Positions 1,009 to 13,826 of a stretch of 64,000 nucleotides of DNA are shown piece after piece. The DNA is from a virus (Duplodnaviria; Heunggongvirae; Uroviricota; Caudoviricetes). Within the stretch, counting starts at the first letter, position 1, and each line of letters opens with the position of its first letter. The translations under genes and the position numbers were made by a program. The stretch is taken from positions 1 to 64,000 of the IMG/VR virus record IMGVR_UViG_3300045963_000153, one strand, 5' to 3'. Below the pieces are notes generated by a model. It saw only the letters and a list, made by a program, of their open reading frames with translations, searched no databases and had not been told where the DNA came from.

Positions 1009-1011
1009 ATT

Positions 1012-1288: not shown

Positions 1289-1468
1289 TTATTTAATAAA
1301 TTTAAAAACGCTAATTTTTTTAACCATAACATGTGTACCTTCAGCATCAACAAAAAAACTAGTTGCATCACCAAATTGCACACGTTCTTTAAACTCGTCT
1401 TCAGTTCCGTTAAAATTGATGATATATTTTTTTCCATTCTCTAATTCCAATTCTGCTTTAATATTCAT
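1289..1468 (-). CDS. hypothetical small protein (59 aa, MNIKAELELENGKKY...)
   Basis: Short ORF with an ATGA overlap onto the nadV stop. It was not in the ORF track because it is under 60 aa. Confidence 0.3.
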   Translation of the reverse strand: MNIKAELELENGKKYIINFNGTEDEFKERVQFGDATSFFVDAEGTHVMVKKISVFKFIK

Positions 1469-2934
1469 ACTAATTGTTCCTTTAATCGATTACGAATCGT
1501 ACTGAGAGATTCATCTACAAGTAGTTTACCATCTTTAAAGATTTCTACAAGTAAATTTCCTTCAATACTATCATTTTTTGTTAATCCATCTAAACATACG
1601 ATTTGATTGTTGTTTTTAACAACAGCAACACGACCACGTTTAGAATTTTTTGTTCCATCATCGGTTTTTGGTGCTTTAAAAATTGCTTTCTCATCTCCAT
1701 TAATAGTGACTGAAGTGGCTTTCATTGCAAAACCAAATGTATCCCTAGTATTAAATTGATAAGTAAAACTACCAACGCCAAAAACAATATTTGTACTACA
1801 AAATCCTTTTGACTTAAGACCTTCACAAATTTCTTGTGCTCTCTTAAGAGTAATACTATCGCCATAAATAGCACCAATATGAGAGTCAAGAAGTTTATAA
1901 CTTGAAGCATTTAATGTTCCTCCAAATGTATCATATAAACATTCAATAAGACCTTTTTTAGCAAATTCATTATCACTATTAACATCACCACAGACAATTT
2001 TTACTGGATCTCCACTGTCTGGACGAATAACAAGTTTACCATCTCTCGCCATAATAATATCTTTAATTTGTGGTAAAACATTACCAACAATATTCCAAAA
2101 ATCCCAAGTATCTGATACTACCGAAAGAATACCTTTTGGATGTACTTCTGTTAATAAACGAAGAAACGTTTGTTTCTCATCAGAACCACCAGCAGACATT
2201 ACAGAGTGTTCGGTGGCAAACACTGAAGTTCCAACAAGTTCCTTTTCAACATTAGCATTATAAAATTCTTCTGCTCCAAGGATAGCTGGAATTGTATCTG
2301 TTCCAGCAAATGAAACTAAATGTCCAAGACCACTATTGATTGAACTGTTTACTGAACTCATTCCTCGCATAGCAAAATCGTGTGCTTGAAAATCAATAAA
2401 TCCAAGATCTCCACCAGTTTGTTTTGCATAATTAGTGAGAAGTTTTCTGTATTGATGTGCAATAGTTGCTGATGTCGATGATTGCCAAAGCTCACAAGAA
2501 ATTAATGTTTCAAGAAAGTTTGTTAACCAAAAAAATCTAGAATCTGTATTTTCAATAGTCATCATAGGAACACGAATTGGGCATAGTGTCCCTTCTGGAA
2601 GTGCTTTAATTGATAGTGGTAAATAACCTAAATCATGTAACTCTTCAATATGTTTAGTTTCTGGGTTAGCATCAAAAAATGCATTCTTCATGATACGAAC
2701 ATAATTTGCAATTACTTGTTCTTTTGGTTGACTAAAAAAATTATTATTAAATTCACCAATCAAAAATTCTTTAATTAACTTTTGTTGACCAAAACTTACA
2801 ACACCATCCACGTTAGGAATTAGTGATTGTCTTGGAGTCCAAGTGGAATAAACAACTTCTGTTCCTGTTGGATATTGTTGACGATGATGAAGCTTATATG
2901 CATCTGCTAATAACATTACCTGTGTGTTTTTCAT
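1465..2934 (-). CDS. nadV: nicotinamide phosphoribosyltransferase family protein (NAMPT/NadV-like; Namat candidate)
   Basis: N-terminal LLADAYKLHHRQQYP matches NAMPT LLATDSYKVTHYKQYP. Further family matches are FWLTNFLETL, HDFAMRGMSS, GTDT, VVSDTWD, RPDSGDP and YGDSIT. Confidence 0.85.
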   Translation of the reverse strand: MKNTQVMLLADAYKLHHRQQYPTGTEVVYSTWTPRQSLIPNVDGVVSFGQQKLIKEFLIGEFNNNFFSQPKEQVIANYVRIMKNAFFDANPETKHIEELHDLGYLPLSIKALPEGTLCPIRVPMMTIENTDSRFFWLTNFLETLISCELWQSSTSATIAHQYRKLLTNYAKQTGGDLGFIDFQAHDFAMRGMSSVNSSINSGLGHLVSFAGTDTIPAILGAEEFYNANVEKELVGTSVFATEHSVMSAGGSDEKQTFLRLLTEVHPKGILSVVSDTWDFWNIVGNVLPQIKDIIMARDGKLVIRPDSGDPVKIVCGDVNSDNEFAKKGLIECLYDTFGGTLNASSYKLLDSHIGAIYGDSITLKRAQEICEGLKSKGFCSTNIVFGVGSFTYQFNTRDTFGFAMKATSVTINGDEKAIFKAPKTDDGTKNSKRGRVAVVKNNNQIVCLDGLTKNDSIEGNLLVEIFKDGKLLVDESLSTIRNRLKEQLV

Positions 2935-2935
2935 T

Positions 2936-3391
2936 CTATTCCTCTTTCATGTTTGGATCGCAAATAGTAATACTAATCATATACCTTTTACAAAGTAAAG
3001 TCAATAGTTTCTCTGTTTCTTCCCAATTTACTTTAAACCCACCACTATTAATTTTTGGCATATAAAAATTCTCTTTAAATATTATTGAGTTAAAGAAAGA
3101 ATTTAATGCCAAACCCGTATAAAAATTAATTGAATATGGATCGTCTGGATTTTGACTATCTCCGTTAGAAACATATAAGTTAACTAACCCAAACTCATCG
3201 TAATCATAATAATCATAGGTTCCAAGATCTGAGTATTTACAATATTCTTGATAATCAATAAACATTTTAGGATTAAATTCTTTCAAGGCTTTGGCAACAC
3301 CAGAATCCCATTTTCCCTCGATATTGCAAGATTGGATCAATATACCGTCAGAAGGTACATCCAATACTGACATTTTTTTATAGATTAACAT
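2936..3391 (-). CDS. mini-macro (Macro_2-like) ADP-ribose-binding or processing domain protein
   Basis: ILIQSCNIEGKWDSGVAKALKEFNP resembles the hhh(Q/H)xxNCxGxxGxGhAKxh start of phage mini-macro domains. The first ATG with a purine-rich RBS is at 3391 (MLIYKK); the longer track ORF begins with TTG. Confidence 0.4.
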   Translation of the reverse strand: MLIYKKMSVLDVPSDGILIQSCNIEGKWDSGVAKALKEFNPKMFIDYQEYCKYSDLGTYDYYDYDEFGLVNLYVSNGDSQNPDDPYSINFYTGLALNSFFNSIIFKENFYMPKINSGGFKVNWEETEKLLTLLCKRYMISITICDPNMKEE

Positions 3392-4155
3392 GGTACTTCT
3401 TGTCCTCGACAAATAATTCTATTATAACCAGTCTCTTTTACATCTTTTAATCTATTAGGTTGAATAATATGACTAATATGAAGGTCAATAGACTTACTAA
3501 TAGATTTTAAATCTTTAATAATATTAATAAATGTTGCTCCCCCATCAATAAGGTCATCGCATACAAGAACATTTCCTAACTCAAACTTTTCTGGTATATA
3601 TAACTTCATTTCTAATATCTTGCCAGTAGAAGGATCTCTATGCTTTTCAAAATATCCTTTATCAGCTTTATTAAAAGCAAAAGGAATATGCGTAAACATT
3701 TCAGAGTAGCGAGTTAACGCACCTTTATCTGGAAAAATAATTGTATCGTAGAAATGTTTATTATCTTCAAAATAAATAGCTAACTCATAAGGAAGAATAT
3801 TAATAACATGTGATCGGATTGCTTCAACATTATGAATATCATACGCACTTTTCTCACATTGCATTAATGATAAAACCGTTTTGAAAGTATTTAAAGCAAA
3901 TGTACTACCAGATAAAAACATTGGTTTATCCTGTCGTGCATATGGAAGTGTTGGCATATAAATTCTATGTTCAATATCATTTGCGGATAATACTTGTGAT
4001 AATTGTAATAAATGAAAAATTTCTGCATCATTTTCAAATTTAAAAATAATTTCATTCATTTCTTTATATTTAACAAAATTAGTTAATCCCCAAACTTGAT
4101 GAGTATTATCTGGAAATTTTGTTGGTTTAATTTCATGTCCATTAAGTGTAATCAT
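3385..4155 (-). CDS. ribose-phosphate pyrophosphokinase (Prs) family protein, shortened (Adps-like candidate)
   Basis: MPTLPYARQDK matches the Prs IPYFGYARQDR signature. VLVCDDLIDGGATF matches the PRTase/Prs VLVDDMIDTGGT motif. Length is 256 aa versus about 315 aa for cellular Prs. Confidence 0.8.
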   Translation of the reverse strand: MITLNGHEIKPTKFPDNTHQVWGLTNFVKYKEMNEIIFKFENDAEIFHLLQLSQVLSANDIEHRIYMPTLPYARQDKPMFLSGSTFALNTFKTVLSLMQCEKSAYDIHNVEAIRSHVINILPYELAIYFEDNKHFYDTIIFPDKGALTRYSEMFTHIPFAFNKADKGYFEKHRDPSTGKILEMKLYIPEKFELGNVLVCDDLIDGGATFINIIKDLKSISKSIDLHISHIIQPNRLKDVKETGYNRIICRGQEVPC

Positions 4156-5171
4156 TTTTTCTCCAATTTAATTAATCCGTCCATTGAATTTTTATGGCAT
4201 AAATCACGATACATACATGGTCTGTAATAACCATCATTGTCGCATTTAGTAAGATCTGGAGTGATTTCCCCACTATTAATCTTATCATTTACCATTCCAA
4301 TATTATCTATCACAGCATCAATAAATTCAATAGGAATTTCATCAATAATAATTTGCATTGAACATGTTGGATGTAAAGTCTCTTCCCACTCACCATTGCA
4401 TCGCACAGGTTTTGGTGGATTAGATAAAAGTTGTGCCACTTCATTATCACAAGTTTTAAATTTACCGCCACTACCATCTTTATTACATATTTTGCAGATT
4501 TTCTTTTTGTTCTTTTTAATATTCTTAGAAAATACTACATAACCTGCTAAATTGGTATTGTATTTATCTCCCAATGTATATAGGTATTGTGATAACTGAA
4601 TTGATTCTTTTACAGAGTTTGCTTCATAATCTTTACTAGCGGTTTTAAAATCAAGTACAATCGGTTTATCATAACCTTTAAGCTTAACTACAGCATCTGC
4701 ATAACCTACGTTAGAATCGTCACCGGAGGTTAATAATACTTCTTCCTCTGTGCTATAGACTTTTTCTAATAATGGAATAAAATTGGTAATAAACGAATCA
4801 ATCATTAAGTGTGCTTTAGTTCTTAATGATTCCCAAGGTGTCTCACCAAAATCAATGTCAAAATCTGATTTACTATAAACAACATTTATAGATTCTTTTA
4901 GATTTACTGTAACATTATTAAATTCTTGGAATGTCCATGCTTTATCAAAAAAATCTTTGGCAATAGAAATATCTACCTGATTGTTTGTAAATGCTTGTAG
5001 AATATGTTCAAAGGTTTTACCGATTGCACTACCAAAAATTAATGGACTAGCAATACTTGTTGGTCGAAGACGCTCAACATAGTGGTTATACCAAGCTCTT
5101 TCACAAAATTGAAATTTTTGAATCTGAGAATGCGAAAGACGGTTAGCCATTTTAAAAATCTCCCTTGGCAC
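4152..5171 (-). CDS. PD-(D/E)XK nuclease, Cas4/RecB-like, with C-terminal Cys cluster
   Basis: The N-terminus SHSQIQKFQFCERAWYNHYVERLRP is Cas4/YqaJ-like. GYADAVVKLKGYDKPIVLDFKT is a D...(D/E)xK core. C-terminal cysteines (C...C..C......C) suggest an Fe-S or Zn site. Confidence 0.5.
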   Translation of the reverse strand: MPREIFKMANRLSHSQIQKFQFCERAWYNHYVERLRPTSIASPLIFGSAIGKTFEHILQAFTNNQVDISIAKDFFDKAWTFQEFNNVTVNLKESINVVYSKSDFDIDFGETPWESLRTKAHLMIDSFITNFIPLLEKVYSTEEEVLLTSGDDSNVGYADAVVKLKGYDKPIVLDFKTASKDYEANSVKESIQLSQYLYTLGDKYNTNLAGYVVFSKNIKKNKKKICKICNKDGSGGKFKTCDNEVAQLLSNPPKPVRCNGEWEETLHPTCSMQIIIDEIPIEFIDAVIDNIGMVNDKINSGEITPDLTKCDNDGYYRPCMYRDLCHKNSMDGLIKLEKK

Positions 5172-6045
5172 AAGCTAATGTTACAATTCCACGACTTCTC
5201 CACATATCAACAACTCTCGCCCTATCATCAATAGCAAATTTAATATTTGCAAATCTTGTTTTTATTTCAAAATCTAAAATAATTTCTTTTACTAACTTAT
5301 CATCCCTATGATCTGCACGAGGACGCATCATAAGATAATCATAAAAGAATTTATTATCTTCCAACCATTTTTTAGTTTGTGGTTTTAATGAATCTGGTCT
5401 GCCAGAACAAAAAACAATGAGATTTTTATCTCTCATACTGTTAACAATTTCTCTACACCACTGATTCGGTGTATCTAAATGTATATTATCAAAAAAAGAT
5501 TTCCAATCTGCTTTTTTTCCATCTTTCTTATCAACAAAATATAGCCTGTGGTCTATATTTGCTGCTGTTCCATCGATATCAACCAAAATTGCAGAACTTC
5601 TATTTGTAATGTTTGGATAACGGTATTCAACCGTATCGGCTTCATCAAAAGTAGGACGTTCATATTTACTAAAAAACATATTTAATGCATTTTTAGCATG
5701 TTCTTCGGTTGTAATTGTTGGGTGATCAAGTCTAGCATTACATCTTTTAAGACAAGTCTCATAGTTTTCATGCATAACAATGATTTGTGTTTCGTATCCA
5801 GATTCTTTCGCTGGGTTTAGATAACGAGCACGTTGTTCTTTATTAAAATTAAGACGATCCATAACAATGTTACGTTTACATTCAATAGCAGCTTTAAACA
5901 TAGTCAAATGACCAGATTTAGTATGATCATCCTGATTGATACGAAGAAAATGATTTCCATCAGATTCTAATTGAGATGAAATTGAATGTGCTAATGAAGT
6001 TTTGCCAGCACCGCTTGGACCACAGAGGATAATTAATTTTGGCAT
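5152..6045 (-). CDS. pnk: polynucleotide 5'-kinase / 3'-phosphatase (T4 PseT/Pnk homolog)
   Basis: P-loop ILCGPSGAGKTS at the N-terminus. HAD phosphatase motif ILVDIDGTAAN. The C-terminal FAIDDRARVVDMWRSRGIVTLACAKGDF aligns with T4 Pnk [28 protein letters not shown]. Confidence 0.9.
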   Translation of the reverse strand: MPKLIILCGPSGAGKTSLAHSISSQLESDGNHFLRINQDDHTKSGHLTMFKAAIECKRNIVMDRLNFNKEQRARYLNPAKESGYETQIIVMHENYETCLKRCNARLDHPTITTEEHAKNALNMFFSKYERPTFDEADTVEYRYPNITNRSSAILVDIDGTAANIDHRLYFVDKKDGKKADWKSFFDNIHLDTPNQWCREIVNSMRDKNLIVFCSGRPDSLKPQTKKWLEDNKFFYDYLMMRPRADHRDDKLVKEIILDFEIKTRFANIKFAIDDRARVVDMWRSRGIVTLACAKGDF

Positions 6046-6046
6046 A

Positions 6047-6331
6047 TTATGCCTTACGTCTAAATGTAGGAGCCATATATTCTTCTACTTCATATGGAAC
6101 ACAGTATGAAAAATCAGTTCCATCATAACTATCATAATGACCATTAGCTTGAACAAAAAAAGTTTCTCCGTCTTTACATGTAATTTTATACACATAAGTA
6201 TAAGTTTCTCCCTCACCTTCTCCACCACTTTCAAGAGCATTATGAATTAATACTCCTTTAATTTCTGGCGTAGTATAATGATCATATTGTAATTGTTTTT
6301 GAATTTCATTAATAATTTCGATTTTAGTCAT
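6047..6331 (-). CDS. hypothetical small acidic protein, paralog A (GGEGEGE motif)
   Basis: 94 aa. Shares the GGEG(D/E)G, GxYxSxD and YEVEEY motifs with the adjacent ORF. Confidence 0.4.
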   Translation of the reverse strand: MTKIEIINEIQKQLQYDHYTTPEIKGVLIHNALESGGEGEGETYTYVYKITCKDGETFFVQANGHYDSYDGTDFSYCVPYEVEEYMAPTFRRKA

Positions 6332-6620
6332 GTTTTTTAACCTTTCTCCAATCTTTAACTTCTTTAATATATTCTTCTACTTCATATGCTTTATCATCAA
6401 ACTGGTTACTATCCCAACTACTATAATATCCATCAATACGAAACAAAGCTACTTCTTTTCCTTGAGAAATTTCAAAAATATAAGATAGAGGAGCACCGTC
6501 CCCTTCACCACCGACTTCAGCTTCAATTTGAACGTCATAACCTTCTAATTCAAATTCTTCATAATAACCACCGTCCATCATAAAATTTGATAATTCTTTG
6601 ACAATTAACTTTTTATCCAT
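6324..6620 (-). CDS. hypothetical small acidic protein, paralog B (GGEGDG motif)
   Basis: 98 aa. Tandem paralog of 6047-6331. Confidence 0.4.
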   Translation of the reverse strand: MDKKLIVKELSNFMMDGGYYEEFELEGYDVQIEAEVGGEGDGAPLSYIFEISQGKEVALFRIDGYYSSWDSNQFDDKAYEVEEYIKEVKDWRKVKKHD

Positions 6621-7353
6621 TTTTCATCCCCTTATGTATTTGAAAATAACGTTCGTTCATTTGATTAAATCTTAAATCAAAATAGTTGTCAATTAAAAAT
6701 AAATTAAACCATCCTGTAGTTGAAGAAGTAATTAATTGCTTTAACGCTTTAGCTAATGCAATTTTAGGTGGATATTCTAAATATCTTTCAATTCCAAATA
6801 CATAAGCTTCTTCTAACGCACATTTAAGTTTTTCTTCATGAGTAATTTTGTCCCAAAGTAATTTGCTACACTTTACACTATGTAAATTGGGGCGAATAGT
6901 TTCATGTAATGGTCTATCGCCAAATTTAACAAGTTCATGTAATTCATCGTGATTATATTTTCTAGTAATTTTTGAAGTAAAGAATGTATCTGTATCGCCT
7001 TCAAGTTTTACTTTTTTCTTGTGGTGGATTATAGACCAGTCTTCCAAAAGACTCTCATAAAGCTCATAATTGAGTTTACAGCCCTTATCTTTCATGAACT
7101 TGATATCATGCATAGTCTTATCGAAATTGATATCATAGCAAGCGTGAGAGATTTTAATAGTATATAGGAAGTTTGGATCTACATACCGAGTATCACTATT
7201 AAATTTTACAATATGTTTAAAAGATGGAGCAAAATGGTATTCTATTCCTTTTCCGCTTTTACCTTTACCAATATAGTCAAGATCTTTTGGGTTTCTTGGA
7301 AAATCAGGAAACCAATGTTTTAGTGCTGTGCTACCAAAAATTAAATTATCCAT
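6613..7353 (-). CDS. putative Pol-beta-superfamily nucleotidyltransferase
   Basis: The N-terminal LIFGSTALKHWFPDFPRNPKDLDY fits a GS...D.D nucleotidyltransferase motif. Weak. Confidence 0.35.
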   Translation of the reverse strand: MDNLIFGSTALKHWFPDFPRNPKDLDYIGKGKSGKGIEYHFAPSFKHIVKFNSDTRYVDPNFLYTIKISHACYDINFDKTMHDIKFMKDKGCKLNYELYESLLEDWSIIHHKKKVKLEGDTDTFFTSKITRKYNHDELHELVKFGDRPLHETIRPNLHSVKCSKLLWDKITHEEKLKCALEEAYVFGIERYLEYPPKIALAKALKQLITSSTTGWFNLFLIDNYFDLRFNQMNERYFQIHKGMKNG

Positions 7354-8326
7354 TTTTTACCACTTGAGAATATACATCATATACAAAATTGTCAATCCAA
7401 GTTTGATCTGGGGTTTCTCTAAGTGATGATGTCATTTGTGCTGCTTGAAGTTTTTCTAAACCATCAACAATAATATCGGCAACTTCATTATATTCCATTT
7501 TACCAATTTTAATATTTAAAAGTAATTCTCGATCTGGTCTTGGGAATGTAACAAATGAAGTTTTAAGTAATTCTAATCCTTGTGAATTAACTCTAACCGC
7601 ATGTGAAAGTGCTTTCCAGTCGATTCCTTCGTTTAATTCTGCTTTTAGTGCTCTCTGCCCATATTGATCAAAACGTCTTTGGACTTGATCTCTAGCCATT
7701 TTAACGGAACTATTAAAAGCATAGTGCTTATCACATACTTTTAAAAACATATCTTTAGTTCCAAACTTATTATCTAATTCCACAATAGAAATAAATTCAT
7801 TATTTGAATCTACAACAAAATTAATTAAAGCGATGTGATTTTCATGAAGTTTACTATGTAAATGTAATTTTTCTAAAAAAGAAATAGTATCTCGTAAAGC
7901 AGCAACACGAAATCCTTTTAAACCATATTTTGCTGCTTGCTGTCTTGCATAGCCAATAAATGCTGCAAGATTTTTAGAAATTAATTTTTCTCTATTATTG
8001 TAGATGTCAGAAAAGATATAGAAATCATCTTTATTTAAATATGTAAACATTCCAAGTGGAGCAAATAAAATATCAAGGGAAACAGTTTGACCTTCAGATA
8101 ATAATTTAAGATATCGATCTAAACTAAATATTTCAACGTCAACATCATCTTTGGTGTTACGTTCATTTACCGCTTTTGGTCTTTGTGTACTAATTGTTTT
8201 TTTATAATTACCTAAAACAATTTCACGAGCTTCTGGAATATATATTGATTTTAAATCTAGATCTGAGTTTGGCGTAGAGGTGCCGTAAAGGGCACTTCCA
8301 AATTTAAGTTCAAATAATTTATTCAT
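7346..8326 (-). CDS. Pol-beta-superfamily nucleotidyltransferase (minimal-NTase / RlaP-like)
   Basis: FGSALYGTSTPNSDLDLKSIYI is a canonical hG[GS]x9-13Dh[DE]h nucleotidyltransferase motif near the N-terminus. An alpha-helical C-terminal domain follows. Confidence 0.6.
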   Translation of the reverse strand: MNKLFELKFGSALYGTSTPNSDLDLKSIYIPEAREIVLGNYKKTISTQRPKAVNERNTKDDVDVEIFSLDRYLKLLSEGQTVSLDILFAPLGMFTYLNKDDFYIFSDIYNNREKLISKNLAAFIGYARQQAAKYGLKGFRVAALRDTISFLEKLHLHSKLHENHIALINFVVDSNNEFISIVELDNKFGTKDMFLKVCDKHYAFNSSVKMARDQVQRRFDQYGQRALKAELNEGIDWKALSHAVRVNSQGLELLKTSFVTFPRPDRELLLNIKIGKMEYNEVADIIVDGLEKLQAAQMTSSLRETPDQTWIDNFVYDVYSQVVKNG

Positions 8327-8610
8327 GATTTTAATTTACTACTAACAACTGTACATTCTGTAAAGACCTTTGGTGGTTTTTTATTAGCCATAGCCTTTTG
8401 AAATTCGTGTTCCATTATAGCATTATTATATTCTGAAGCACAAATATTTTGTAAATCTTCAAATATCATTCCATCTGGTATTAAATTTGCTTTTTTTAAT
8501 TCCGTCCAAATTGCTGGTAGATGATTAAAAACAAGCTGTGGGAGTATGTTTGGGTAACCAAGTTTAGTTAAATAATCTATAATTACTTTTTTTGTTTGTT
8601 CTTTATCCAT
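8323..8610 (-). CDS. hypothetical protein
   Basis: 95-aa ORF, operon-packed with ATGA-type overlaps. Confidence 0.35.
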   Translation of the reverse strand: MDKEQTKKVIIDYLTKLGYPNILPQLVFNHLPAIWTELKKANLIPDGMIFEDLQNICASEYNNAIMEHEFQKAMANKKPPKVFTECTVVSSKLKS

Positions 8611-9080
8611 TAAGGTTTTGATCCATATACTTTACTATCAATAACTAAAAAACCGTCTTTATGTAACCCATTATCCCGATTTCCCGGATTATAATGAACC
8701 CAATGGATAATTGCTCCCATTGGTGATGGTCTTTGTGCTCGTGAGCTTACTGTTATATAATCACCACAAGCTAGAATTCTCATACCAGACATCAATACTG
8801 GTAATTGACCAAACTCATTATTATAAATAATTTCAATATCTCCACCGAAGATTGAATCAATATCTAAAGAAAAATGTGTGTGCCCAGTTTGGTTTGGATA
8901 TACTGTAACTACTGTACCACTAACCAGTGCTCGTTTTAGTGTTTGGTCTGGAGTATTATGTTTCCAAAAAATAACTTGTTGATTTAAATTTGGTAAAATT
9001 CTATTGTCAATATCTAAACAATTTGGAACAAGGGCAAATGTTTTTGTTGTAAATAGTAAAATCAATAGATATTTTATCAT
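8610..9080 (-). CDS. secreted hypothetical protein (signal peptide)
   Basis: N-terminal MIKYLLILLFTTKTFALV hydrophobic signal. C-terminal HWVHYNPGNRDNGLHKDGF. Confidence 0.4.
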   Translation of the reverse strand: MIKYLLILLFTTKTFALVPNCLDIDNRILPNLNQQVIFWKHNTPDQTLKRALVSGTVVTVYPNQTGHTHFSLDIDSIFGGDIEIIYNNEFGQLPVLMSGMRILACGDYITVSSRAQRPSPMGAIIHWVHYNPGNRDNGLHKDGFLVIDSKVYGSKP

Positions 9081-9355
9081 CTCTTAAAATCCAATCTATA
9101 ATCTAAAATACCACTTATAGTATGTCCATCTAAAACTTTATTAGAATCTTTAAAATCTTTATGCGTATTACCACATTGACAATTTAAGTATTCATCTTCA
9201 ATTTTTGGTGGTGTATCAGTTAGCCCATAGTAACCACGAGTAGTTTGATCCATTTTTTCAAAATGACCAATCCAATCTTTTTCCCAAGTAATTATATATT
9301 CTAAGTCTACTGGGAAATAACACCAGCCACATTTATTACATTCTATTAAGTTCAT
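9077..9355 (-). CDS. Cys-rich small protein (Zn-finger-like)
   Basis: CNKCGWC ... CQCGNTH cysteine pairs. Confidence 0.35.
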   Translation of the reverse strand: MNLIECNKCGWCYFPVDLEYIITWEKDWIGHFEKMDQTTRGYYGLTDTPPKIEDEYLNCQCGNTHKDFKDSNKVLDGHTISGILDYRLDFKR

Positions 9356-9668
9356 TTAATTCTCTTTGAATTTGTTCATCGTCAACTAAAACATAACCAG
9401 AAATAATAGCATCTTGTAAATATTCATTAGCTCCTAAATTTAAAAAAAGATATGATTCGGCTTTTTTAATATGAAATGAACTAGTTCCTTTATTATATTT
9501 TTTTAATTGTTTTATATGATTATCTCTAACAGTTTTAATATCTGCTTTTGACATATATACAGAACCGGGAAAAGCTTGATTTGTTTTAGCATCAACAGCT
9601 TCTACTGCAGTTAAAATTTCATCCCATTGTTGTTTTAAAAGAGATTTTTTAATTTTAATTATTTTCAT
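9336..9668 (-). CDS. hypothetical protein
   Basis: 110-aa ORF. Confidence 0.3.
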   Translation of the reverse strand: MKIIKIKKSLLKQQWDEILTAVEAVDAKTNQAFPGSVYMSKADIKTVRDNHIKQLKKYNKGTSSFHIKKAESYLFLNLGANEYLQDAIISGYVLVDDEQIQRELNELNRM

Positions 9669-9818
9669 TTTTTAACCTTTTTATTATCGCATCCCATACA
9701 ATAAATTTTATCAGTTTTTTCATTCATAACACCAGCATAAATTTGAGCACCACAAATACTGCAAGTCAACAATTCATAATCTGATTGTTTCTTTTTGTGT
9801 TTTTTCTTTGGTTTTCGT

Positions 9819-10034
9819 TTAGCTTTGCTCATAATTATTTAGCCAAGTATTAACTTCTTCAGAGTCTGGAAGTTTTTTAATAATCAAATATGCTTTATTT
9901 AAAAGAAATTCATACTCCATGTTTTTTTTCATGGTTTGAACATTTAAATCGCCAATGAATAAAGCTTCTTCCGTTGGATCTGGAGCTTTAAACTTAACTA
10001 ATAAATTTTGCAATGATTTCGTTAACCGAAGCAT
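9819..10034 (-). CDS. hypothetical protein
   Basis: 71-aa ORF. Confidence 0.3.
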   Translation of the reverse strand: MLRLTKSLQNLLVKFKAPDPTEEALFIGDLNVQTMKKNMEYEFLLNKAYLIIKKLPDSEEVNTWLNNYEQS

Positions 10035-11550
10035 CGAATCCTACCACCCTTAAAATATTTGCATCGTTTTGAGGAAAATTAGTGACCCCATTGGCAACCA
10101 TTGCCACTTCTATAACTTTAACATTTTTATTAATAGTACGGCGATACTCATTTAAAAGATCAATTGAATGTCTACCACCAGCATATGTTTCACTATCAGT
10201 TAAAATTACAATAGCATCAAACTTGCGTTTAGTTTGTAATGCATACTGAATTGGAATAGAACAATCTGTGCCTCCTCCATGAGTAACGGCTTTCATAGCA
10301 TCAGTAATCGCTGTACGTTTACCCAAAGCAATCTGTTGTAGTTGTGTATCAAATGCAATTAATTCTGCATTAGGTTCAGTTTTAAGAGTTGTTAGAGCAA
10401 GCACAGCACCGAGTTGTGTTGCTGTAAAAGATGTACCGCCGACTTCGGTATTCATGCTTCCAGATACATCTAAACCAACAAGGATGTTTTTACCTGTCGC
10501 ATTAAAATCTTCTACAGAATTATGATAAGCATCTTCTAATGCATCTACAAGCTTTTGATTTACAGGCCAAGTTCCATTACCTTTAAATCCTTTACCACTA
10601 GCATATGTTTTCAAATAATTAACAATATTAACTGGATGAAGTTTTGAATATTTAATTGAAGATTTATTTAGTTTTGTTGTTATAATAGCTTTTGTTGTAT
10701 CACTTAAACCCTCGGTTAATTTAGCATTAGCAAATCTATTTAAATTTCTAATGGTAGCAGTAACAGGCATATTTGGAAGTAATGATTTTAAAACTGTAGC
10801 ATTATTTAATTGATCGGTAGGAATCATTTCCCAAGCTAACTTGTTTTTAACAACAGTATCAACTAGAAGTTCGCCTTCCAATGTTTTGGAAGCTTCAAAC
10901 CCTAAAATTAAACTATTTGTTGTTTCTGGAACTGTACCAGAAACAATATACTTTAAAATTTCATTAATTTGTGGATCTGCACATTTAACATGACAAAGAC
11001 GAAGAACATCTCTATGTGTAAACCCAGAACGATTGCGATATTTTAAAATTTGATAAGTAAGATCTTGTGGAGTTTTTGAAGTATACCAGCGTCCAACAGC
11101 TTTACGAAGTCCAGAAGACCAACCCTTTAAAGTATTTGCTTGAGACACAAATGTTAACAGATGTGTACCTGTACGACAAATTAAATTTAAATTAGTATAA
11201 ATACACTTACGAGTATAATCATCTCCATAAGTAACACAAAGGGCGGCTACAAACAATACCGTATCATATTTCGGAGCATTGTGTGCTTCAATTGTATCAA
11301 AAAGAATATCAACAACAGATTCGCCATGTTGCTTAATTAATTTAATAATTTCAGCAGATGTCTCAATTGTTAATTTTGCTTCCCCAACGTAATATGTTCC
11401 ACCAGTAGAACCAATCAGTAAAAATCTACGAAGTAGCTGTTCTCCAGTGATTGCAAATGAATACCCTTCGGCATTGTTTTTAATCATTTCTGGATAGGCA
11501 GGATGTTTTGTTTTTTGATTTACATTTGAAATTACTTGTGCGTAGTCCAT
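9994..11550 (-). CDS. rsr: Ro60 ortholog (TROVE domain + von Willebrand A domain; Rsr)
   Basis: The N-terminal ~350 aa has a TROVE-like helical repeat region (YYVGEAKLTIETSAEI..., LRKAVGRWY). The C-terminal vWA domain has the MIDAS motif LVGLDVSGSM...GGTD...TDSET. Confidence 0.75.
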   Translation of the reverse strand: MDYAQVISNVNQKTKHPAYPEMIKNNAEGYSFAITGEQLLRRFLLIGSTGGTYYVGEAKLTIETSAEIIKLIKQHGESVVDILFDTIEAHNAPKYDTVLFVAALCVTYGDDYTRKCIYTNLNLICRTGTHLLTFVSQANTLKGWSSGLRKAVGRWYTSKTPQDLTYQILKYRNRSGFTHRDVLRLCHVKCADPQINEILKYIVSGTVPETTNSLILGFEASKTLEGELLVDTVVKNKLAWEMIPTDQLNNATVLKSLLPNMPVTATIRNLNRFANAKLTEGLSDTTKAIITTKLNKSSIKYSKLHPVNIVNYLKTYASGKGFKGNGTWPVNQKLVDALEDAYHNSVEDFNATGKNILVGLDVSGSMNTEVGGTSFTATQLGAVLALTTLKTEPNAELIAFDTQLQQIALGKRTAITDAMKAVTHGGGTDCSIPIQYALQTKRKFDAIVILTDSETYAGGRHSIDLLNEYRRTINKNVKVIEVAMVANGVTNFPQNDANILRVVGFDASVNEIIAKFIS

Positions 11551-11574
11551 ACTTTCCCCTTTGTTAAAAAAATT

Positions 11575-11710
11575 GACTGATAAATGTCGTTTATTGGGTT
11601 TTTTCTATCGCTCTACCAACTGAGCTATCCCCCGTCAAAAATGTTCGGGGGAGCAAGAATCGAACTTGCGACATATAGTTCCCAGTATAACCAATAAACT
11701 ACGACCAGTC
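11575..11710 (-). ncRNA. yrlA: YrlA-like Y RNA: Ro60-binding bulged stem enclosing a permuted tRNA-like module
   Basis: On the minus strand: GACTGGTCGT(AG)TTTATTGG ... T-arm GCAAG-TTCGATT-CTTGC ... acceptor-like helix TCCCCCG/CGGGGGA closed by an 11-nt loop ... D-arm GCTC-AGTTGGTA-GAGC ... CCAATAAACGAC-ATTTAT-CAGTC. The 5' and 3' ends pair with an AG bulge, and a U-run follows. It lies immediately upstream of rsr on the same strand. Confidence 0.6.
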
Positions 11711-11797
11711 AAAAATATGGTAGATAAAGATTAAATAAAGGCATTTGGCTTCAAGATAGTTGAAAACCTTTATTTGACGACCTACCAGTAAAATTTT

Positions 11798-11928
11798 GCA
11801 AAGAAATAAATATTGAGATGGATATAGTGCGTTACCAATTACGCCACCAGAGGATTACTCCACCAGATGGGACTCGAACCCATAACACTTCATTAACAGT
11901 GAAAACCCATCTCTAACGACCTCTCTGC
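11798..11928 (-). ncRNA. second tRNA-like or Y-like RNA element (canonical T-arm GGTTCGAGTCC, anticodon-like arm with a GUU loop, D-arm-like GCG-TAATTGGTAA-CGC; no canonical acceptor pairing)
   Basis: The minus strand has TTTCA-CTGTTAA-TGAAG (a perfect 5-bp stem with a 7-nt loop, U33/A37, Asn-like GUU) and ATGGG-TTCGAGT-CCCAT. The termini GCAGAG/CTTTGC and GAGATGG/CCATCTC can pair. A hairpin plus U-tract (about 11713-11790) separates it from YrlA. Confidence 0.3.
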
Positions 11929-11972
11929 TTAATTAGTTTACGTCATACAAAATATGAAGTCAACAATTATTT

Positions 11973-13826
11973 TTAAGTAATTTCACACAACCCACCAGCA
12001 CAAGCTAAGTTATCAATACGATTGGTGTTATCATCGTTTTCTCTTACTTTAGTAAGATCAATATCTTTAACCATTGAATTATATTTATCGAAAGTTTCTT
12101 TATCACAAGTTTCAAATGGGGCTTGTTGATATGTTCCACCGTCAAATGGTAATAAACTAATGCCTGTATAACTTTCACGGAATTTCCACATAAGATCAAA
12201 TAGTTCTTCTATTTCAGAATCTTTGTAAGAAATAGTAACACTGACATTATGTTGATTCACACCTTGGTTATGTCCGGGTTTAATCCAGTTATCTTGATAC
12301 AAAGTTGTACGTTCAAACATAGATTTAACAGACTCTGCATCTCTAATAATTGCGCCATTTGGTGATTCTTGTGGAATAGTAACCACAACACCATTTGAAG
12401 AGAATACATCATCTTCTACCAATTCAGGAACAACACTCTTTAAATAAACACTAAGAGCATCATCTTTATTCATTCTAACTCGACGAAGATAATAATTGGC
12501 ATGGCGAGCATGGATACCAGAAGAACTACCCAAAACACAAGAAGCCGTACCTTCGGGTTTAATAGTTGTAATACGAGCAGCAGGATTAATCCCAAGTTTA
12601 CGAGCATATTTTTCATTGACTTCTTTTGCGAGTTTAGCTCCTTCATTTAACCATTCTGCAGTAATTAAACCGCTTGCGTCTGCAATACCAGTACAACTAA
12701 CTCCTAATAGTGCTTCTAATTCTGTTGTTTGTTTCCAACTTGGACGAAGATAAGGGAAGTCTGTGTATGCCGCTTGAAGTGTTCCAAGTAGTGTTGCTGC
12801 ATAAATACGATTCAACCAATCTTTTTTATCTTTAACGCCAGTTTGATTAATTGTTGTTAAATTACAAAATTGATTGCTATTCAAACTAATTTCGGCGCAT
12901 GGATTAGTTCCCAAATTTTCATCGTTAGTCCAGAAAAAGCCGGGTTCACCAGATTTACTGTTGATACACATATCAAAAATATGTCTGAACTCATCTTTCT
13001 TAACTGCACCCCTTGGAAGTACTGCGGAGTTATTTGCTCTAGCTCTGTATGGATGTTTCTCCCACCAAGTACCATGCTTAGATTTTAGCATTTCATCATC
13101 TGTGCGATCAAATAATGAAATAAGAGCGGCACGACGAATACCACCAGCAAGAACACAATCCGCAATAATACAAACTAGATCGTGAATTTCAATTGGTTTT
13201 AATCTGCGACCTTCAGCAGCTTTCAATCTAGCATCTACTTGTTCTAGCATGTATTTTAATGGTGCAGGGCCGGGGGCTTTTGCACCAGTCGTAACAAGAT
13301 AAGATCCTTTAGGACGAACATTTGAAAAATCATACACAGGACGCATACGACCATAAAAATAAGAGTCCATTAGAATATCTAGTGCTTGTGCCCACCCAGT
13401 AATGCTGTCGTGTACAACAAACAATCCTTCTTCCCTTGGACGTTGAATTACTGGAAGCTTATTAACATGTCTTTTTTGACAGCTAAATCCAACACCAGTT
13501 CCAGATAATAATAGGAATAGTGCTTCACCAAAAGATCTTGGATCATCAATATGTAAAAACGAACAATTGTATGAACGAATGTTATTCTTTAGAATTGCTT
13601 CTCCACCAAACTGTAATGCTCTCATTGATGGCATTACTTTATACTCATGTACACGCTGATATGCTTTTACAATGTCACGAGATAATTTTGGAAACTTATC
13701 TAAATGCATTTGCATATTACGATTTAATGTTTCTTCAAATACTTCTCGTCTACCAAAGTTTTGAAGATGCTTTGCGTATGTACGAAAACTTACGATGTCT
13801 GATAATAATTTATTACTTTGATTCAT
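11973..13826 (-). CDS. nrdJ: ribonucleotide reductase, class II (adenosylcobalamin-dependent, NrdJ-like), monomeric type
   Basis: Has the RNR active-site loop TNPCAEISL, NrdJ-like central segments and the C-terminal Cys pair ACAGGLCEIT. No separate small subunit is present. GAGAGAGG RBS. Confidence 0.75.
   Translation of the reverse strand: MNQSNKLLSDIVSFRTYAKHLQNFGRREVFEETLNRNMQMHLDKFPKLSRDIVKAYQRVHEYKVMPSMRALQFGGEAILKNNIRSYNCSFLHIDDPRSFGEALFLLLSGTGVGFSCQKRHVNKLPVIQRPREEGLFVVHDSITGWAQALDILMDSYFYGRMRPVYDFSNVRPKGSYLVTTGAKAPGPAPLKYMLEQVDARLKAAEGRRLKPIEIHDLVCIIADCVLAGGIRRAALISLFDRTDDEMLKSKHGTWWEKHPYRARANNSAVLPRGAVKKDEFRHIFDMCINSKSGEPGFFWTNDENLGTNPCAEISLNSNQFCNLTTINQTGVKDKKDWLNRIYAATLLGTLQAAYTDFPYLRPSWKQTTELEALLGVSCTGIADASGLITAEWLNEGAKLAKEVNEKYARKLGINPAARITTIKPEGTASCVLGSSSGIHARHANYYLRRVRMNKDDALSVYLKSVVPELVEDDVFSSNGVVVTIPQESPNGAIIRDAESVKSMFERTTLYQDNWIKPGHNQGVNQHNVSVTISYKDSEIEELFDLMWKFRESYTGISLLPFDGGTYQQAPFETCDKETFDKYNSMVKDIDLTKVRENDDNTNRIDNLACAGGLCEIT

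What the first reader, a model, noticed from the sequence alone, without database searches (positions are those of the whole stretch)
1465..13826. A 12-kb contiguous anti-defence, nucleotide and RNA-maintenance island
In one unbroken leftward operon the phage carries, in order:
- NAD+ reconstitution candidates (NAMPT-like, macro, Prs-like);
- a nuclease, Pnk, and two nucleotidyltransferases;
- Ro60 with its Y RNA, plus a second tRNA-like RNA;
- class II RNR.
Each element individually is known, or plausibly known, to counter a host abortive-infection strategy: NAD depletion, tRNA cleavage, dNTP limitation. Finding them packed together, with the Rsr/Y-RNA pair adjacent to kinase and nucleotidyltransferase genes, may indicate a coordinated counter-defence and repair system that has not been described as a unit.
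Basis: inference. Interest (0 to 1): 0.6.

Follow-up and report, generated by a model that had tools for sequence, protein, structure and literature searches.

The report
Known phage counter-defence modules, side by side
An uncultured ~85-kb phage carries a published NAD+-rebuilding operon, RNA-end repair enzymes, a Ro60 protein with two Y RNAs and a ribonucleotide reductase next to each other, but comparison with other phages shows these are separate, already-described modules sitting in the phage's replication arm rather than one new system.

Summary
The region holds four recognisable modules.

1. Adps–Adpp(macro)–Namat (1465-4155) is the published NARP1-AP NAD+ reconstitution operon. Namat is 58% identical to the crystallised SPβL1 enzyme and keeps its signature motif. 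The macro protein matches yeast Poa1p.
2. Pnkp, a MenT-like nucleotidyltransferase (DUF7275) and RlaP are RNA-end healing enzymes.
3. Ro60/Rsr is preceded by two tandem YrlA-class Y RNAs, and the fold is supported by covariation.
4. A class II RNR.

The 12-kb "island" is not a bounded unit. It lies inside a co-directional gene block of more than 43 kb. The phage's RNA ligase lies about 9.5 kb beyond Namat, past the ERF, DnaB and PolB genes.

Gene order is kept in a clade of ~80-93-kb phages (Ro60 at least ~50% identical), but unrelated genes (Band_7, ERF) are kept there too.

Across IMG/VR loci, links within a module are strong: Adps lies near Namat in 71/80 loci, and a Y RNA near Ro60 in 39/82. 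Links between modules are at background level (1-10% for every pair tested).

Best reading: independently acting, known accessory modules that have accumulated in a replication and nucleotide-metabolism arm. Interest is low to moderate.

The parts
1465..2934 (-). Namat (nicotinamide ADP-ribose transferase, NAMPT-like), the last gene of NARP1-AP
   Evidence: PF04095 1.7e-44 plus NAMPT_N. NCBIfam PRK09198 560 bits, above its cutoff. 58% identity over 480 aa to the crystallised Bacillus phage SPbetaL1 Namat, with the selectivity-clamp helix motif GSFTYQFNTRD (motif defined in PMC12774641).
2936..3412 (-). Adpp-like macro-domain ADPR-1''-phosphate phosphatase. The JGI gene call starts at 3391.
   Evidence: phmmer to yeast Poa1p 6LFQ, E 7.8e-10. 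Weak Pfam Macro, 1.2e-3. phrog_335 'phosphatase' 6e-10. Its position between Adps and Namat matches Vibrio phage Gary (bioRxiv 10.64898/2026.01.28.702374).
3385..4155 (-). Adps (Prs-like ADP-ribose pyrophosphokinase)
   Evidence: phrog_619 1.4e-43. 28% identity, E 1e-9, to the gene directly upstream of SPbetaL1 Namat. NCBIfam Prs models score far below cutoff. A homologue lies within 10 kb of Namat in 71/80 IMG/VR loci.
4152..5171 (-). PD-(D/E)XK (Cas4-like) nuclease, probably the recombination exonuclease paired with the downstream ERF
   Evidence: PF12705 5e-12. cas4 7.5e-8, below cutoff. An ERF gene lies ~1.5 kb downstream of Namat in the source contig. The role is an inference.
5152..6045 (-). 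Bifunctional polynucleotide kinase-phosphatase (Pnkp)
   Evidence: AAA_33 plus HAD_PNKP. P-loop GPSGAGKT and HAD motif DIDGT. PDB Pnkp1 4xrp 2e-14 and T4 Pnk 1ltq 1.2e-10.
6047..6620 (-). Two small ORFs (94 and 98 aa) of unknown function, between Pnkp and the DUF7275 NTase
   Evidence: Only phrog_8206 and phrog_18295, both of unknown function. Homologues sit at the same position in L167.
6613..7353 (-). DUF7277/DUF7275 protein: a Pol-beta-superfamily nucleotidyltransferase with a MenT/AbiEii-like fold; substrate unknown
7346..8326 (-). RlaP-family nucleotidyltransferase (adds 1-2 NMP to damaged RNA 3' ends)
   Evidence: PF10127 5.7e-14. phrog_388 3.8e-77. GS...DLD motif. Family biochemistry is in PMC12776372.
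8323..10034 (-). Six small overlapping ORFs (95, 156, 92, 110, 55 and 71 aa), unknown function
   Evidence: No Pfam or PHROG hit. Mostly not conserved in relatives; 8323-8610 and 8610-9080 have relocated homologues in L080 and L334.
9994..11550 (-). Ro60/Rsr (TROVE ring plus vWA domain)
   Evidence: vWA_Ro60 3.4e-42 and TROVE 1e-26. NCBIfam Rsr 3.4e-97, 326 bits, below its 900-bit cutoff. MIDAS D361-S363-S365 is invariant in 24 homologues.
11565..11715 (-). Y RNA 1 (YrlA class): bipartite 5'/3' stem carrying GGUCGUAG, plus a tRNA-like T-arm, variable stem and D-arm
   Evidence: Rfam YrlA 40.3 bits, E 8.7e-7, below GA 69. In an alignment with 14 phage Ro60-adjacent sequences, 16 of 20 pairs show compensatory changes. 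CM R1 scores 117 bits, but this sequence was used to build the model.
11790..11930 (-).
   Evidence: CM R1 57.7 bits, E 1.7e-11; this sequence was not in the model. Rfam tRNA 25 bits and YrlA 23 bits, both partial. It shows the same architecture by eye: GCAGAGA/UCUUUGC and GAGAUGG/CCAUCUC stems flanking GGUCGUUAG.
11973..13826 (-). Class II (adenosylcobalamin, RTPR-like) ribonucleotide reductase
   Evidence: TIGR02505 RTPR 2.8e-79, 267 bits, below its 340 cutoff. RNR-II_ins_dom 28.4 bits against cutoff 27.
13850..13925 (-). tRNA-His(GUG)-like gene just outside the finding; the D and T loops are non-canonical
   Evidence: Called by ARAGORN. Not reported by the Rfam tRNA model even at E<=10. The T loop reads AGCGUCA.

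Best explanation
The region is a run of at least four separate accessory modules. Each is already known in kind. They sit in the long co-directional early/middle (replication and nucleotide-metabolism) arm of an uncultured ~85-kb low-GC phage. They most likely act independently.

(1) Adps-Adpp-Namat is a NARP1-AP operon.
- Adpp removes the 1''-phosphate from ADPR-1''P, the product of RES-type NADases.
- Adps pyrophosphorylates ADPR to ADPR-PP.
- Namat joins nicotinamide to it, rebuilding NAD+ and cancelling NAD+-depleting abortive infection.

(2) Pnkp heals the 5'-OH and 2',3'-cyclic or 3'-phosphate ends of cleaved tRNA. RlaP, and perhaps the MenT-like DUF7275 NTase, restore missing 3' nucleotides. 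A PF09414 RNA ligase encoded ~13 kb away seals the break.

(3) Ro60/Rsr binds the two YrlA-type Y RNAs encoded just upstream. This would form an RNP that either directs a host exoribonuclease such as PNPase to structured RNA, or offers a tRNA decoy.

(4) The class II RNR raises dNTP supply.

Status of the steps:
- Shown here: the identities, motifs, RNA structure and comparative distribution.
- Inferred from family knowledge: all the activities.
- Inferred from the distribution: that the modules act independently of one another.
For: Module identities:
-.
- The Namat motif GSFTYQFNTRD fits the signature in PMC12774641.
- The gene order Adps-macro-Namat equals the validated Vibrio phage Gary operon.

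Y RNAs:
- Covariation in 16 of 20 pairs.
- The second copy is detected independently.
- YrlA-class hits lie beside Ro60, on the same strand, in 39/82 viral loci, and 14 of these have two or more copies. In a 1.48-Mb control set of RlaP loci, full-length hits fall in only four loci, two of which themselves carry Ro60.

Modularity:
- Namat-anchored loci: Adps 71/80 and macro 18/80, but RlaP 3/80 and Ro60 1/80.
- Ro60-anchored loci: RlaP 5/80, Namat 4/80, Pnk 2/80, RNR 6/80.
- RlaP-anchored loci: Ro60 2/77, Namat 6/77.
- Rearrangements inside the clade: Adps-Namat lies directly upstream of Ro60 in L084 and L086. Ro60, a Y RNA and an EndoVII gene sit between Adps and Namat in L335. RlaP, Pnk and NARP are absent around Ro60 in L081, L165 and L166.

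The block extends well beyond the finding, and the RNA ligase lies outside it, behind ERF, DnaB and PolB.

Unrelated genes (Band_7, DUF3310, ERF, PD-(D/E)XK) are as syntenic as the 'island' genes.
Against: - In five of eight sampled clade members with good flanks (the window, the P0001 contig, L080, L334, L167), Ro60 is followed within 3-8 kb by RlaP and Pnkp in the same order. That could reflect selection for linkage.
- Ro60 and RlaP also lie within 7 kb of each other in a few unrelated contigs: L003, L051 and L102/L103/L108/L109/L136.
- In bacteria, rsr and the Y RNAs are part of an RNA-repair operon (PMC7790460).
- No random-anchor null was available, so 'background' is judged only by comparing the anchored sets with one another.
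- Homologue detection of divergent Pnk or macro genes by ad hoc HMMs may under- or over-count.
Confidence: 0.7

Rival explanations
1. Ro60 with its two Y RNAs, RlaP, the DUF7275 NTase, Pnkp and the distal RNA ligase form one phage tRNA-repair or quality-control pathway. This would be a phage analogue of the bacterial rsr-yrlBA-rtcBA operon. The Y RNA/Ro60 RNP would recognise or protect damaged tRNAs, or act as a decoy for anticodon nucleases, while the enzymes heal and seal them. NARP1-AP and RNR would be merely neighbours.
For: - The order Y RNA-Ro60-...-RlaP-(DUF7275)-Pnkp is kept in the window, the P0001 contig, L080, L334 and L167, at 49-76% Ro60 identity.
- Ro60 and RlaP lie within 7 kb of each other in other lineages too: L003, L051 and L102/103/108/109/136.
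- Precedent exists for Rsr and Y RNA inside an RNA-repair operon, and for a proposed decoy role of YrlA (PMC7790460).
- TROVE is listed among jumbo-phage RNA-repair components (PMC7824862).
Against: - RlaP lies near Ro60 in only 5/80 viral loci, no more often than near Namat (3/80).
- Ro60 plus Y RNA occurs without any repair enzyme within 9-10 kb in L081, L165, L166, L082 and mycobacteriophage Colt.
- The ligase is ~13 kb away from Pnkp.
- Six unrelated small ORFs separate Ro60 from RlaP.
Confidence: 0.17
2. The whole 12-kb stretch is, one co-regulated counter-defence island. NAD+ rebuilding, tRNA repair, Ro60/Y RNA and RNR would be selected to stay together and be expressed together against abortive-infection systems.
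For: - The genes are tightly packed and co-directional, with overlapping stops and starts from 11550 to 1012.
- The complete order is kept in the 76%-identity relative.
- Adps-Namat is adjacent to Ro60 in L083, L084, L086 and L335.
Against: - The same packing continues for more than 43 kb and includes replication genes.
- Inter-module co-occurrence is at background level in three anchored samples.
- NARP1 is not within 10 kb in L080 or L334.
- The RNR at this position is replaced by a different RNR type in L080, L167 and L335.
Confidence: 0.06
3. The RNR-Ro60 neighbourhood is a nucleotide-scavenging unit. Ro60/Y RNA would direct host PNPase to structured host RNA such as rRNA, and the released ribonucleotides would feed the adjacent RNR for phage DNA synthesis. 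This is metabolism rather than counter-defence.
For: - RNR-Y RNA-Ro60 is the most constant adjacency in the clade: the window, the P0001 contig, L080, L085, L167 and L334, with L089 nearby.
- An RNR stays at that position even when its class changes.
- A Ro60-Y RNA-PNPase machine is known in Deinococcus (PMC4201824).
Against: - Outside the clade, RNR lies near Ro60 in 6/80 loci, the same as near Namat (8/80) or RlaP (4/77), and only one is within 1.5 kb.
- No PNPase gene was seen in the annotated regions.
- An RTPR-type enzyme would use NTPs, not the NDPs that PNPase releases (family knowledge).
Confidence: 0.05

Closest known systems
NARP1-AP (Adps-Adpp-Namat) of Vibrio phage Gary; NARP1 of Bacillus phage SPbetaL1 (Osterman et al. 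2024 bioRxiv 10.1101/2024.02.11.579819; 2026 bioRxiv 10.64898/2026.01.28.702374; Namat structure PMC12774641)
   Same: - Same three genes in the same order.
- Namat is 58% identical to the SPbetaL1 enzyme and carries the GSxΦxΦxΦTRD motif.
- The macro protein's best solved homologue is Poa1p, as reported for Adpp.
- The Prs-like gene is adjacent, which is the published operational definition.
   Different: - Adps (28% identity) and Adpp are very divergent from the studied examples. Adpp has only one tblastn hit in 50,697 phage records.
- The residue aligned with the clamp-loop Arg40 is Leu.
- The host and activity are untested.
Bacterial and mycobacteriophage Rsr (Ro60) with YrlA/YrlB Y RNAs (Chen et al. 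2014, PMC4201824); Salmonella rsr-yrlBA-rtcBA RNA-repair operon (PMC7790460)
   Same: - A TROVE plus vWA protein.
- Two Y RNAs immediately upstream on the same strand, as in M. smegmatis.
- A tRNA-like T/D-arm domain and a long terminal stem.
- Proximity to RNA-repair enzymes.
   Different: - The Rfam YrlA score is below gathering.
- The 5' motif is GGUCGUAG rather than GNCGAAN0-1G.
- The neighbouring repair enzymes are Pnkp and RlaP (the 5'-P ligase route), not RtcB and RtcA.
- Both phage Y RNAs carry the tRNA-like domain. In the described bacteria the second Y RNA (YrlB/Yrn2) is a simpler hairpin.
T4-type tRNA repair (Pnkp + Rnl) with the RlaP nucleotidyltransferase (T4 NrdC.11; PMC12776372; jumbo-phage survey PMC7824862)
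   Same: - A bifunctional kinase-phosphatase with both catalytic motifs.
- An RlaP-family NTase.
- A PF09414 RNA ligase in the same genome.
   Different: - The ligase is not adjacent: it is ~13 kb from Pnkp, across NARP1-AP and the replication genes.
- There is an extra MenT-like NTase (DUF7275) between RlaP and Pnkp.
MenT/AbiEii (DUF1814-type) nucleotidyltransferase toxins
   Same: - It has the G-S...DxD catalytic motif.
   Different: - There is no sequence-level match (Pfam, NCBIfam and PDB phmmer were all negative).
- It is phage-encoded with no antitoxin-like partner.
- It has conserved His/Asp/Glu residues in the C-terminal domain.
- Its function is unknown.

Membership tests
NARP1 / NARP1-AP | A Namat homologue with the selectivity-clamp helix signature GS-X-Φ-X-Φ-X-Φ-TRD, aromatic at positions 3 and 7 | tested here: met
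   The window protein reads GSFTYQFNTRD, aligned to SPbetaL1 GSFTYQYNTRD. Identity is 58% overall. The motif definition comes from PMC12774641.
NARP1 / NARP1-AP | A selectivity-clamp loop that provides a stacking residue (Arg, Lys or Tyr at the third or fourth loop position) | tested here: inconclusive
   The residue aligned with SPbetaL1 Arg40 is Leu (TPRQSLIPN against TPRTSRVED). The paper itself describes the loop as variable, and no structure was modelled here.
NARP1 / NARP1-AP | An Adps (Prs-like) gene in close proximity to Namat | tested here: met
   3385-4155 lies one gene upstream of Namat. phrog_619 1.4e-43. 28% identity, E 1e-9, to the SPbetaL1 gene upstream of Namat. The same pairing is seen in 71/80 Namat loci.
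NARP1 / NARP1-AP | A macro-domain, Poa1p-like phosphatase (Adpp) within the operon | tested here: met
   2936-3412 lies between Adps and Namat. phmmer to Poa1p 6LFQ gives 7.8e-10. Pfam Macro itself is below its cutoff, 19.2 against 22 bits.
NARP1 / NARP1-AP | Reconstitution of NAD+ from ADPR(-1''P) plus nicotinamide, and rescue from NADase defences | not testable with these tools
   Needs enzymology, or co-expression with aRES, Thoeris or other NADase systems.
Rsr (Ro60) / YrlA RNP | A TROVE ring plus a vWA domain with a MIDAS motif | tested here: met
   TROVE 1e-26 and vWA_Ro60 3.4e-42. D361/S363/S365 are invariant. The NCBIfam Rsr equivalog scores 326 bits, below its 900 cutoff, so this is a divergent member.
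Rsr (Ro60) / YrlA RNP | A YrlA-like RNA close to rsr on the same strand | tested here: met
   Two copies lie 15 and 240 nt upstream of the Ro60 start codon, on the same strand. The same pattern is seen in 39/82 viral Ro60 loci.
Rsr (Ro60) / YrlA RNP | Reaches the Rfam RF02553 (YrlA) gathering score | tested here: not met
   40.3 bits and 23 bits against a gathering score of 69. No hit at gathering over the whole window.
Rsr (Ro60) / YrlA RNP | A tRNA-like domain (T-arm, D-arm, variable stem) supported by covariation | tested here: met
   RNAalifold on 15 phage sequences predicts 20 pairs, 16 of them with double compensatory changes.
Rsr (Ro60) / YrlA RNP | The 5' Ro-binding motif GNCGAAN0-1G | tested here: inconclusive
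   The phage family consensus is GGGUCGUAG; the window has GGUCGUAG and GGUCGUUAG. This resembles the vertebrate GGUCCGA but does not match the bacterial motif literally.
Rsr (Ro60) / YrlA RNP | Physical binding of the Y RNA to Ro60, and of PNPase | not testable with these tools
   Needs RIP or co-IP from infected cells.
T4-type Pnkp/Rnl RNA repair with RlaP | A bifunctional 5'-kinase / 3'-phosphatase with a P-loop and a DxDxT motif | tested here: met
   GPSGAGKT and DIDGT. HAD_PNKP 1.2e-28. Pnkp1 and T4 Pnk are the PDB hits.
T4-type Pnkp/Rnl RNA repair with RlaP | An RNA ligase encoded next to Pnkp or RlaP | tested here: not met
   No ligase domain was found among the annotated genes of window 1-34 kb. 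A PF09414 ligase lies ~9.5 kb past Namat in the source contig, outside the window.
T4-type Pnkp/Rnl RNA repair with RlaP | RlaP (PF10127) with the Pol-beta GS...DxD motif | tested here: met
   PF10127 52.8 bits against cutoff 23. FGSALYG...DLDL.
Class II (B12-dependent) RNR | The RNR barrel plus the B12-RNR insertion domain; match to RTPR or NrdJ models | tested here: met
   RNR-II_ins_dom 28.4 bits against cutoff 27, and Ribonuc_red_lgC 32.6 against 23.9. TIGR02505 RTPR 2.8e-79, at 267 bits below its 340-bit equivalog cutoff.
MenT/AbiEii nucleotidyltransferases (for DUF7275) | A sequence-family match (DUF1814/AbiEii) and a toxin-antitoxin context | tested here: not met
   [not shown]

The most novel reading that the evidence does not exclude
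In this phage clade the Ro60-Y RNA particle may work together with RlaP, the uncharacterised MenT-like DUF7275 nucleotidyltransferase, Pnkp and the distal Rnl as a phage tRNA repair or decoy pathway. This would be a 5'-phosphate-ligase counterpart of the bacterial rsr-yrlBA-rtcBA operon. It would give Ro60/Y RNA its first defined role in a virus-host conflict.
Probability: 0.15. Interest if true: 0.6.

Novelty: new member of a known kind. Interest (0 to 1): 0.3.

Why it matters
If the modules are independent, as the evidence suggests, the value is mostly as annotation.
- It is a divergent, uncultured example of the recently described NARP1-AP anti-defence operon.
- It extends Ro60 plus tandem YrlA RNAs to a phage clade of ~80-93 kb outside the actinophages.
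- It shows that DUF7275 is a MenT-like nucleotidyltransferase that recurs beside RlaP and Pnkp.

The function of Ro60/Y RNA in bacteria and phages is still open. This clade keeps Ro60, Y RNAs, RlaP and Pnkp in a fixed order, so it would be a reasonable place to test a link to tRNA repair. The present data do not show such a link.

Tried and rejected
- Megablast of the 12-kb region against 50,697 phage records found no match. The terminase is only 23% identical to Vibrio phage proteins. Cultured relatives therefore cannot be used for synteny.
- A single-protein Ro60 scan of IMG/VR found nothing. An alignment-based scan was needed.
It added nothing to the clade sample.
- Rfam at gathering thresholds found no RNA at all in the window. 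The Y RNAs emerged only with E-value thresholds and a home-built covariance model.
- The idea that RNR-Ro60 adjacency is a general scavenging unit was rejected. Outside the clade, RNR is no more frequent near Ro60 (6/80) than near Namat (8/80) or RlaP (4/77).
- The apparent Pnk enrichment near Namat (16/80) was rejected. All but one hit are ORFs of 370-530 nt, against 894 nt for the window Pnkp gene, so they can cover only one of its two domains.
- The sigma-70-like TTGACT-17-TATACT at 11712-11684 was rejected as a promoter. Its TTGAC is the conserved 5' strand of the Y RNA terminal stem. Promoter-like sites overall are not enriched over shuffles: 76 against 88.8±9.8.
- An attempt to read Burroughs & Aravind 2016 failed because the paper is not held.

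Full report
**What the window is.** The window is the reverse complement of a JGI metagenome contig (3300046018, Ga0485832_0000008, 84,758 bp). It is 100% identical from window position 1012 to beyond 33 kb. It is a phage.
- A terminase-like gene and other large + strand ORFs lie from ~34 kb onward.
- Some 73 genes, nearly all small, run on the - strand from ~33.9 kb to position 1.
- GC content is ~31%.
- It has no close cultured relative. Megablast found nothing, and TerL is 23% identical to Vibrio phage proteins.

| Coordinates (- strand) | Element | Main evidence |
|---|---|---|
| 1465-2934 | NAMPT-like | PF04095 1.7e-44 |
| 2936-3412 | Macro-like | Weak Pfam Macro; direct hit on yeast Poa1p, an ADPR-1''-phosphate phosphatase, E 7.8e-10 |
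| 3385-4155 | Prs-like | phrog_619 1.4e-43 |
| 4152-5171 | PD-(D/E)XK/Cas4-like nuclease | |
| 5152-6045 | Bifunctional Pnkp | P-loop GPSGAGKT and HAD motif DIDGT |
| 6613-7353 | DUF7275 | See below |
| 7346-8326 | RlaP | |
| 9994-11550 | Ro60/Rsr | |
| 11973-13826 | Class II, RTPR-like RNR | |

- G-S...DxD is invariant across 34 homologues.

**The RNAs.** Rfam finds nothing at gathering thresholds. At E-value thresholds it reports a YrlA match at 11583-11695 (40.3 bits, E 8.7e-7) and weaker tRNA and YrlA matches at 11829-11919.

I collected similar sequences lying beside Ro60 in IMG/VR phage contigs and aligned 15 of them.
- RNAalifold predicts the T-arm, a variable stem, the D-arm and an anticodon-stem-like helix.
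- Sixteen of the 20 pairs show double compensatory changes.

A covariance model built from that alignment finds exactly two sites in the 64-kb window.
- 11565-11715. This sequence is a training member.
- 11790-11930, at 57.7 bits and E 1.7e-11. This sequence is independent of the model.

The "second tRNA-like RNA" is therefore a second YrlA-class Y RNA. Both have a bipartite terminal stem enclosing GGUCGU(U)AG.

The model hits 39 of 82 viral Ro60 loci, always on the Ro60 strand and mostly within a few hundred nt. Fourteen of these loci carry two to six copies. In 1.48 Mb of RlaP-anchored control loci, full-length hits fall in only four loci, two of which themselves carry Ro60.

This matches the literature. 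Chen et al. 2014 found YrlA RNAs next to Ro60 in 254 bacteria and 22 phages, and two Y RNAs upstream of rsr in M. smegmatis (PMC4201824).

**The NAD+ trio is a published system.**
- The NAMPT-like protein is 58% identical over 480 residues to the Namat of Bacillus phage SPbetaL1, the crystallised and validated enzyme.
- It carries the Namat-specific clamp-helix signature (GSFTYQFNTRD; PMC12774641).
- The Prs-like protein aligns with the SPbetaL1 gene immediately upstream of Namat (28% identity, E 1e-9).
- The order Adps-macro-Namat is that of the three-gene NARP1-AP operon of Vibrio phage Gary. There the Poa1p-like Adpp converts ADPR-1''P, the product of aRES NADases, to ADPR for NARP1. About 15% of NARP1 operons carry such a macro gene (bioRxiv 10.64898/2026.01.28.702374).
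- In my Namat-anchored IMG/VR sample, Adps is present in 71/80 loci and the macro gene in 18/80. This is consistent with the published figure.

**Is the 12 kb a unit? Boundaries.**
- From the Ro60 start to position 1012, genes overlap or abut, with no gap above 3 nt.
- The same packing characterises the whole - strand arm.
- In the source contig the arm continues past Namat with ERF, DnaB, a split PolB, a glycosyltransferase and a methyltransferase.
- Only then, ~9.5 kb beyond Namat, comes a PF09414 RNA ligase.
- The ligase needed to complete Pnkp/RlaP repair is therefore outside the "island", separated from it by NARP1-AP and the replication genes.
- The PD-(D/E)XK nuclease sits naturally with ERF as an exonuclease/annealase pair. 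This is an inference.

**Is the 12 kb a unit? Comparative evidence.** Ro60 homologues at 46-76% identity lie on many ~80-93-kb contigs. I examined these loci:

| Relative (Ro60 identity) | Arrangement |
|---|---|
| P0001 contig (76%) | Full order kept, with insertions |
| L080 (54%), L334 (52%), L167 (~50%) | Band_7-RNR-Y RNA(s)-Ro60-...-RlaP-(DUF7275)-Pnkp kept; different intervening genes |
| L335 (50%) | Adps-Ro60-Y RNA-EndoVII-Namat; no RlaP |
| L084, L086 | Adps-Namat directly upstream of Ro60 |
| L081, L165, L166, L082 | None of the other modules within 10 kb |

Genes with no connection to the hypothesis (Band_7, DUF3310, ERF, PD-(D/E)XK and several small ORFs) are conserved and collinear to the same degree. 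The clade-level synteny therefore looks like inheritance of a genome arm.

**Anchored samples outside the clade.** Co-occurrence within ±10 kb:

| Anchor (number of loci) | Ro60 | RlaP | Namat | Pnk | RNR |
|---|---|---|---|---|---|
| Ro60 (80) | - | 5 | 4 | 2 | 6 |
| RlaP (77) | 2 | - | 6 | 5 | 4 |
| Namat (80) | 1 | 3 | - | ~1 full length | 8 |

Mycobacteriophage Colt has Ro60 and a Y RNA but no Pnk, RlaP or NARP within 9 kb.

Within-module links (89% and 48%) are an order of magnitude stronger than any between-module link.

**Mechanism.** I conclude that the modules most likely act separately.
- NARP1-AP rebuilds NAD+ from ADPR(-1''P) and nicotinamide.
- Pnkp heals tRNA ends. RlaP, and possibly DUF7275, add back 3' nucleotides (family biochemistry: PMC12776372). 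The distal Rnl seals the break.
- Ro60 with its two Y RNAs forms an RNP. By analogy it either recruits a host 3'-5' exonuclease to structured RNA or presents a tRNA-like decoy (PMC4201824; PMC7790460).
- RNR boosts dNTP supply.

The identities, motifs and RNA structure are shown here. All activities are inferred from family membership.

**Rivals.** The most credible alternative is a functional Ro60/Y RNA-RlaP-NTase-Pnkp pathway. It would be a phage analogue of rsr-yrlBA-rtcBA, and it is supported by the fixed order in five clade members and a few unrelated Ro60-RlaP neighbourhoods. I give it ~0.15-0.2. The full-island hypothesis and an RNR-Ro60 scavenging unit are each about 0.05.

**Novelty.**
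- Phage repertoires combining RNA repair (Pnk, RlaP, ligases, TROVE plus a tRNA-like RNA), NAD+ supply and ADPr-processing macro domains were catalogued as conflict adaptations in jumbo phages (PMC7824862).
- NARP1-AP, phage Ro60/YrlA and RlaP each have their own literature.
- New here is a divergent, uncultured clade that carries them all, the fold assignment of DUF7275, and two tRNA-like Y RNAs in tandem.
- I rate this a new member of known kinds, with interest about 0.3.

Noticed in passing
window 1-1011 (HNH ORF 433-1008): The window diverges from the otherwise identical JGI contig exactly here. An HNH_3 endonuclease gene, found on a separate 1.2-kb contig of the same metagenome, replaces the start of the ERF region. 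This looks like a homing-endonuclease presence/absence polymorphism between co-occurring strains.
   Followed up: partly
window 13850-13925 (- strand): ARAGORN calls a tRNA-His(GUG). The Rfam tRNA model does not report it even at E<=10. The T loop is AGCGUCA, not the canonical one, the D arm is odd, and ACCA is encoded at the 3' end. It may be a divergent phage tRNA or a tRNA-like element.
   Followed up: partly
L169 19547-20180 (source contig, ~9.5 kb beyond the window's left end): A PF09414/PHA02142 RNA ligase (375 aa) is encoded on the same strand after ERF, DnaB, PolB, a glycosyltransferase and a methyltransferase. It is the missing partner of Pnkp and RlaP, but it is far from them.
   Followed up: partly
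window 11973-13826 compared with L080 7584-9485, L167 7642-9411 and L335 6452-8227: The RNR upstream of Ro60 is RTPR-like here and in L334 (80% identity) and L089 (69%). In L080, L167 and L335 it is only 24-28% identical; L167 and L335 carry Ribonuc_red_lgN, while L080 still carries the class II insertion domain. This suggests displacement of the RNR gene at a conserved position.
   Followed up: partly
L335 9118-13797: In this clade member, Ro60, a Y RNA and an Endonuclease VII gene sit between Adps and Namat, splitting the NARP1 pair. A YAcAr (SLOG) gene follows Namat. HNH or EndoVII genes flank Ro60 or RlaP in several relatives, which hints at homing-endonuclease-driven shuffling.
   Followed up: no
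L090 11710-12933: Six tandem YrlA-class Y RNA copies lie downstream of a single Ro60 gene in one IMG/VR contig. L128 has four and L083, L140, L141 and L161 have three each.
   Followed up: no
window 6613-7353 and homologues P0121-P0215: DUF7275 is a small family: 95 clusters at E<=1e-5 in 5.8 billion proteins. It occurs on ~85-90-kb and T4-like ~160-175-kb phage contigs. In T4-like contigs it lies ~9 kb from RlaP with a NAMPT-like gene between them (L040, L041, L057). It has invariant H70, H135 and H139 and E181/E182/E189/R190 in its helical domain. Its function is unknown.
   Followed up: partly
window 19196-20017: A Band_7/SPFH-domain gene is conserved upstream of the RNR-Ro60 region across the clade (76% identity in L080, 61% in L089). 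Its role in a phage is unclear.
   Followed up: no
L023-L077 (T4-like contigs): A homologue of the Poa1p-like macro protein lies 3-6 kb upstream of the T4 NrdC.11-type RlaP in about 20 T4-like contigs, without an adjacent Adps or Namat. This macro family therefore also occurs outside NARP1 operons.
   Followed up: no
L168 (Mycobacterium phage Colt) 14953-15186: A PnuC-like nicotinamide riboside transporter is annotated 4.3 kb downstream of Ro60 in this cluster C mycobacteriophage. This is a second, unrelated instance of an NAD-related gene near Ro60 and is probably coincidental.
   Followed up: no
L169 15066-17554: The family B DNA polymerase of the source phage is split into 509-aa and 229-aa ORFs, with a 96-aa ORF between them.
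   Followed up: no
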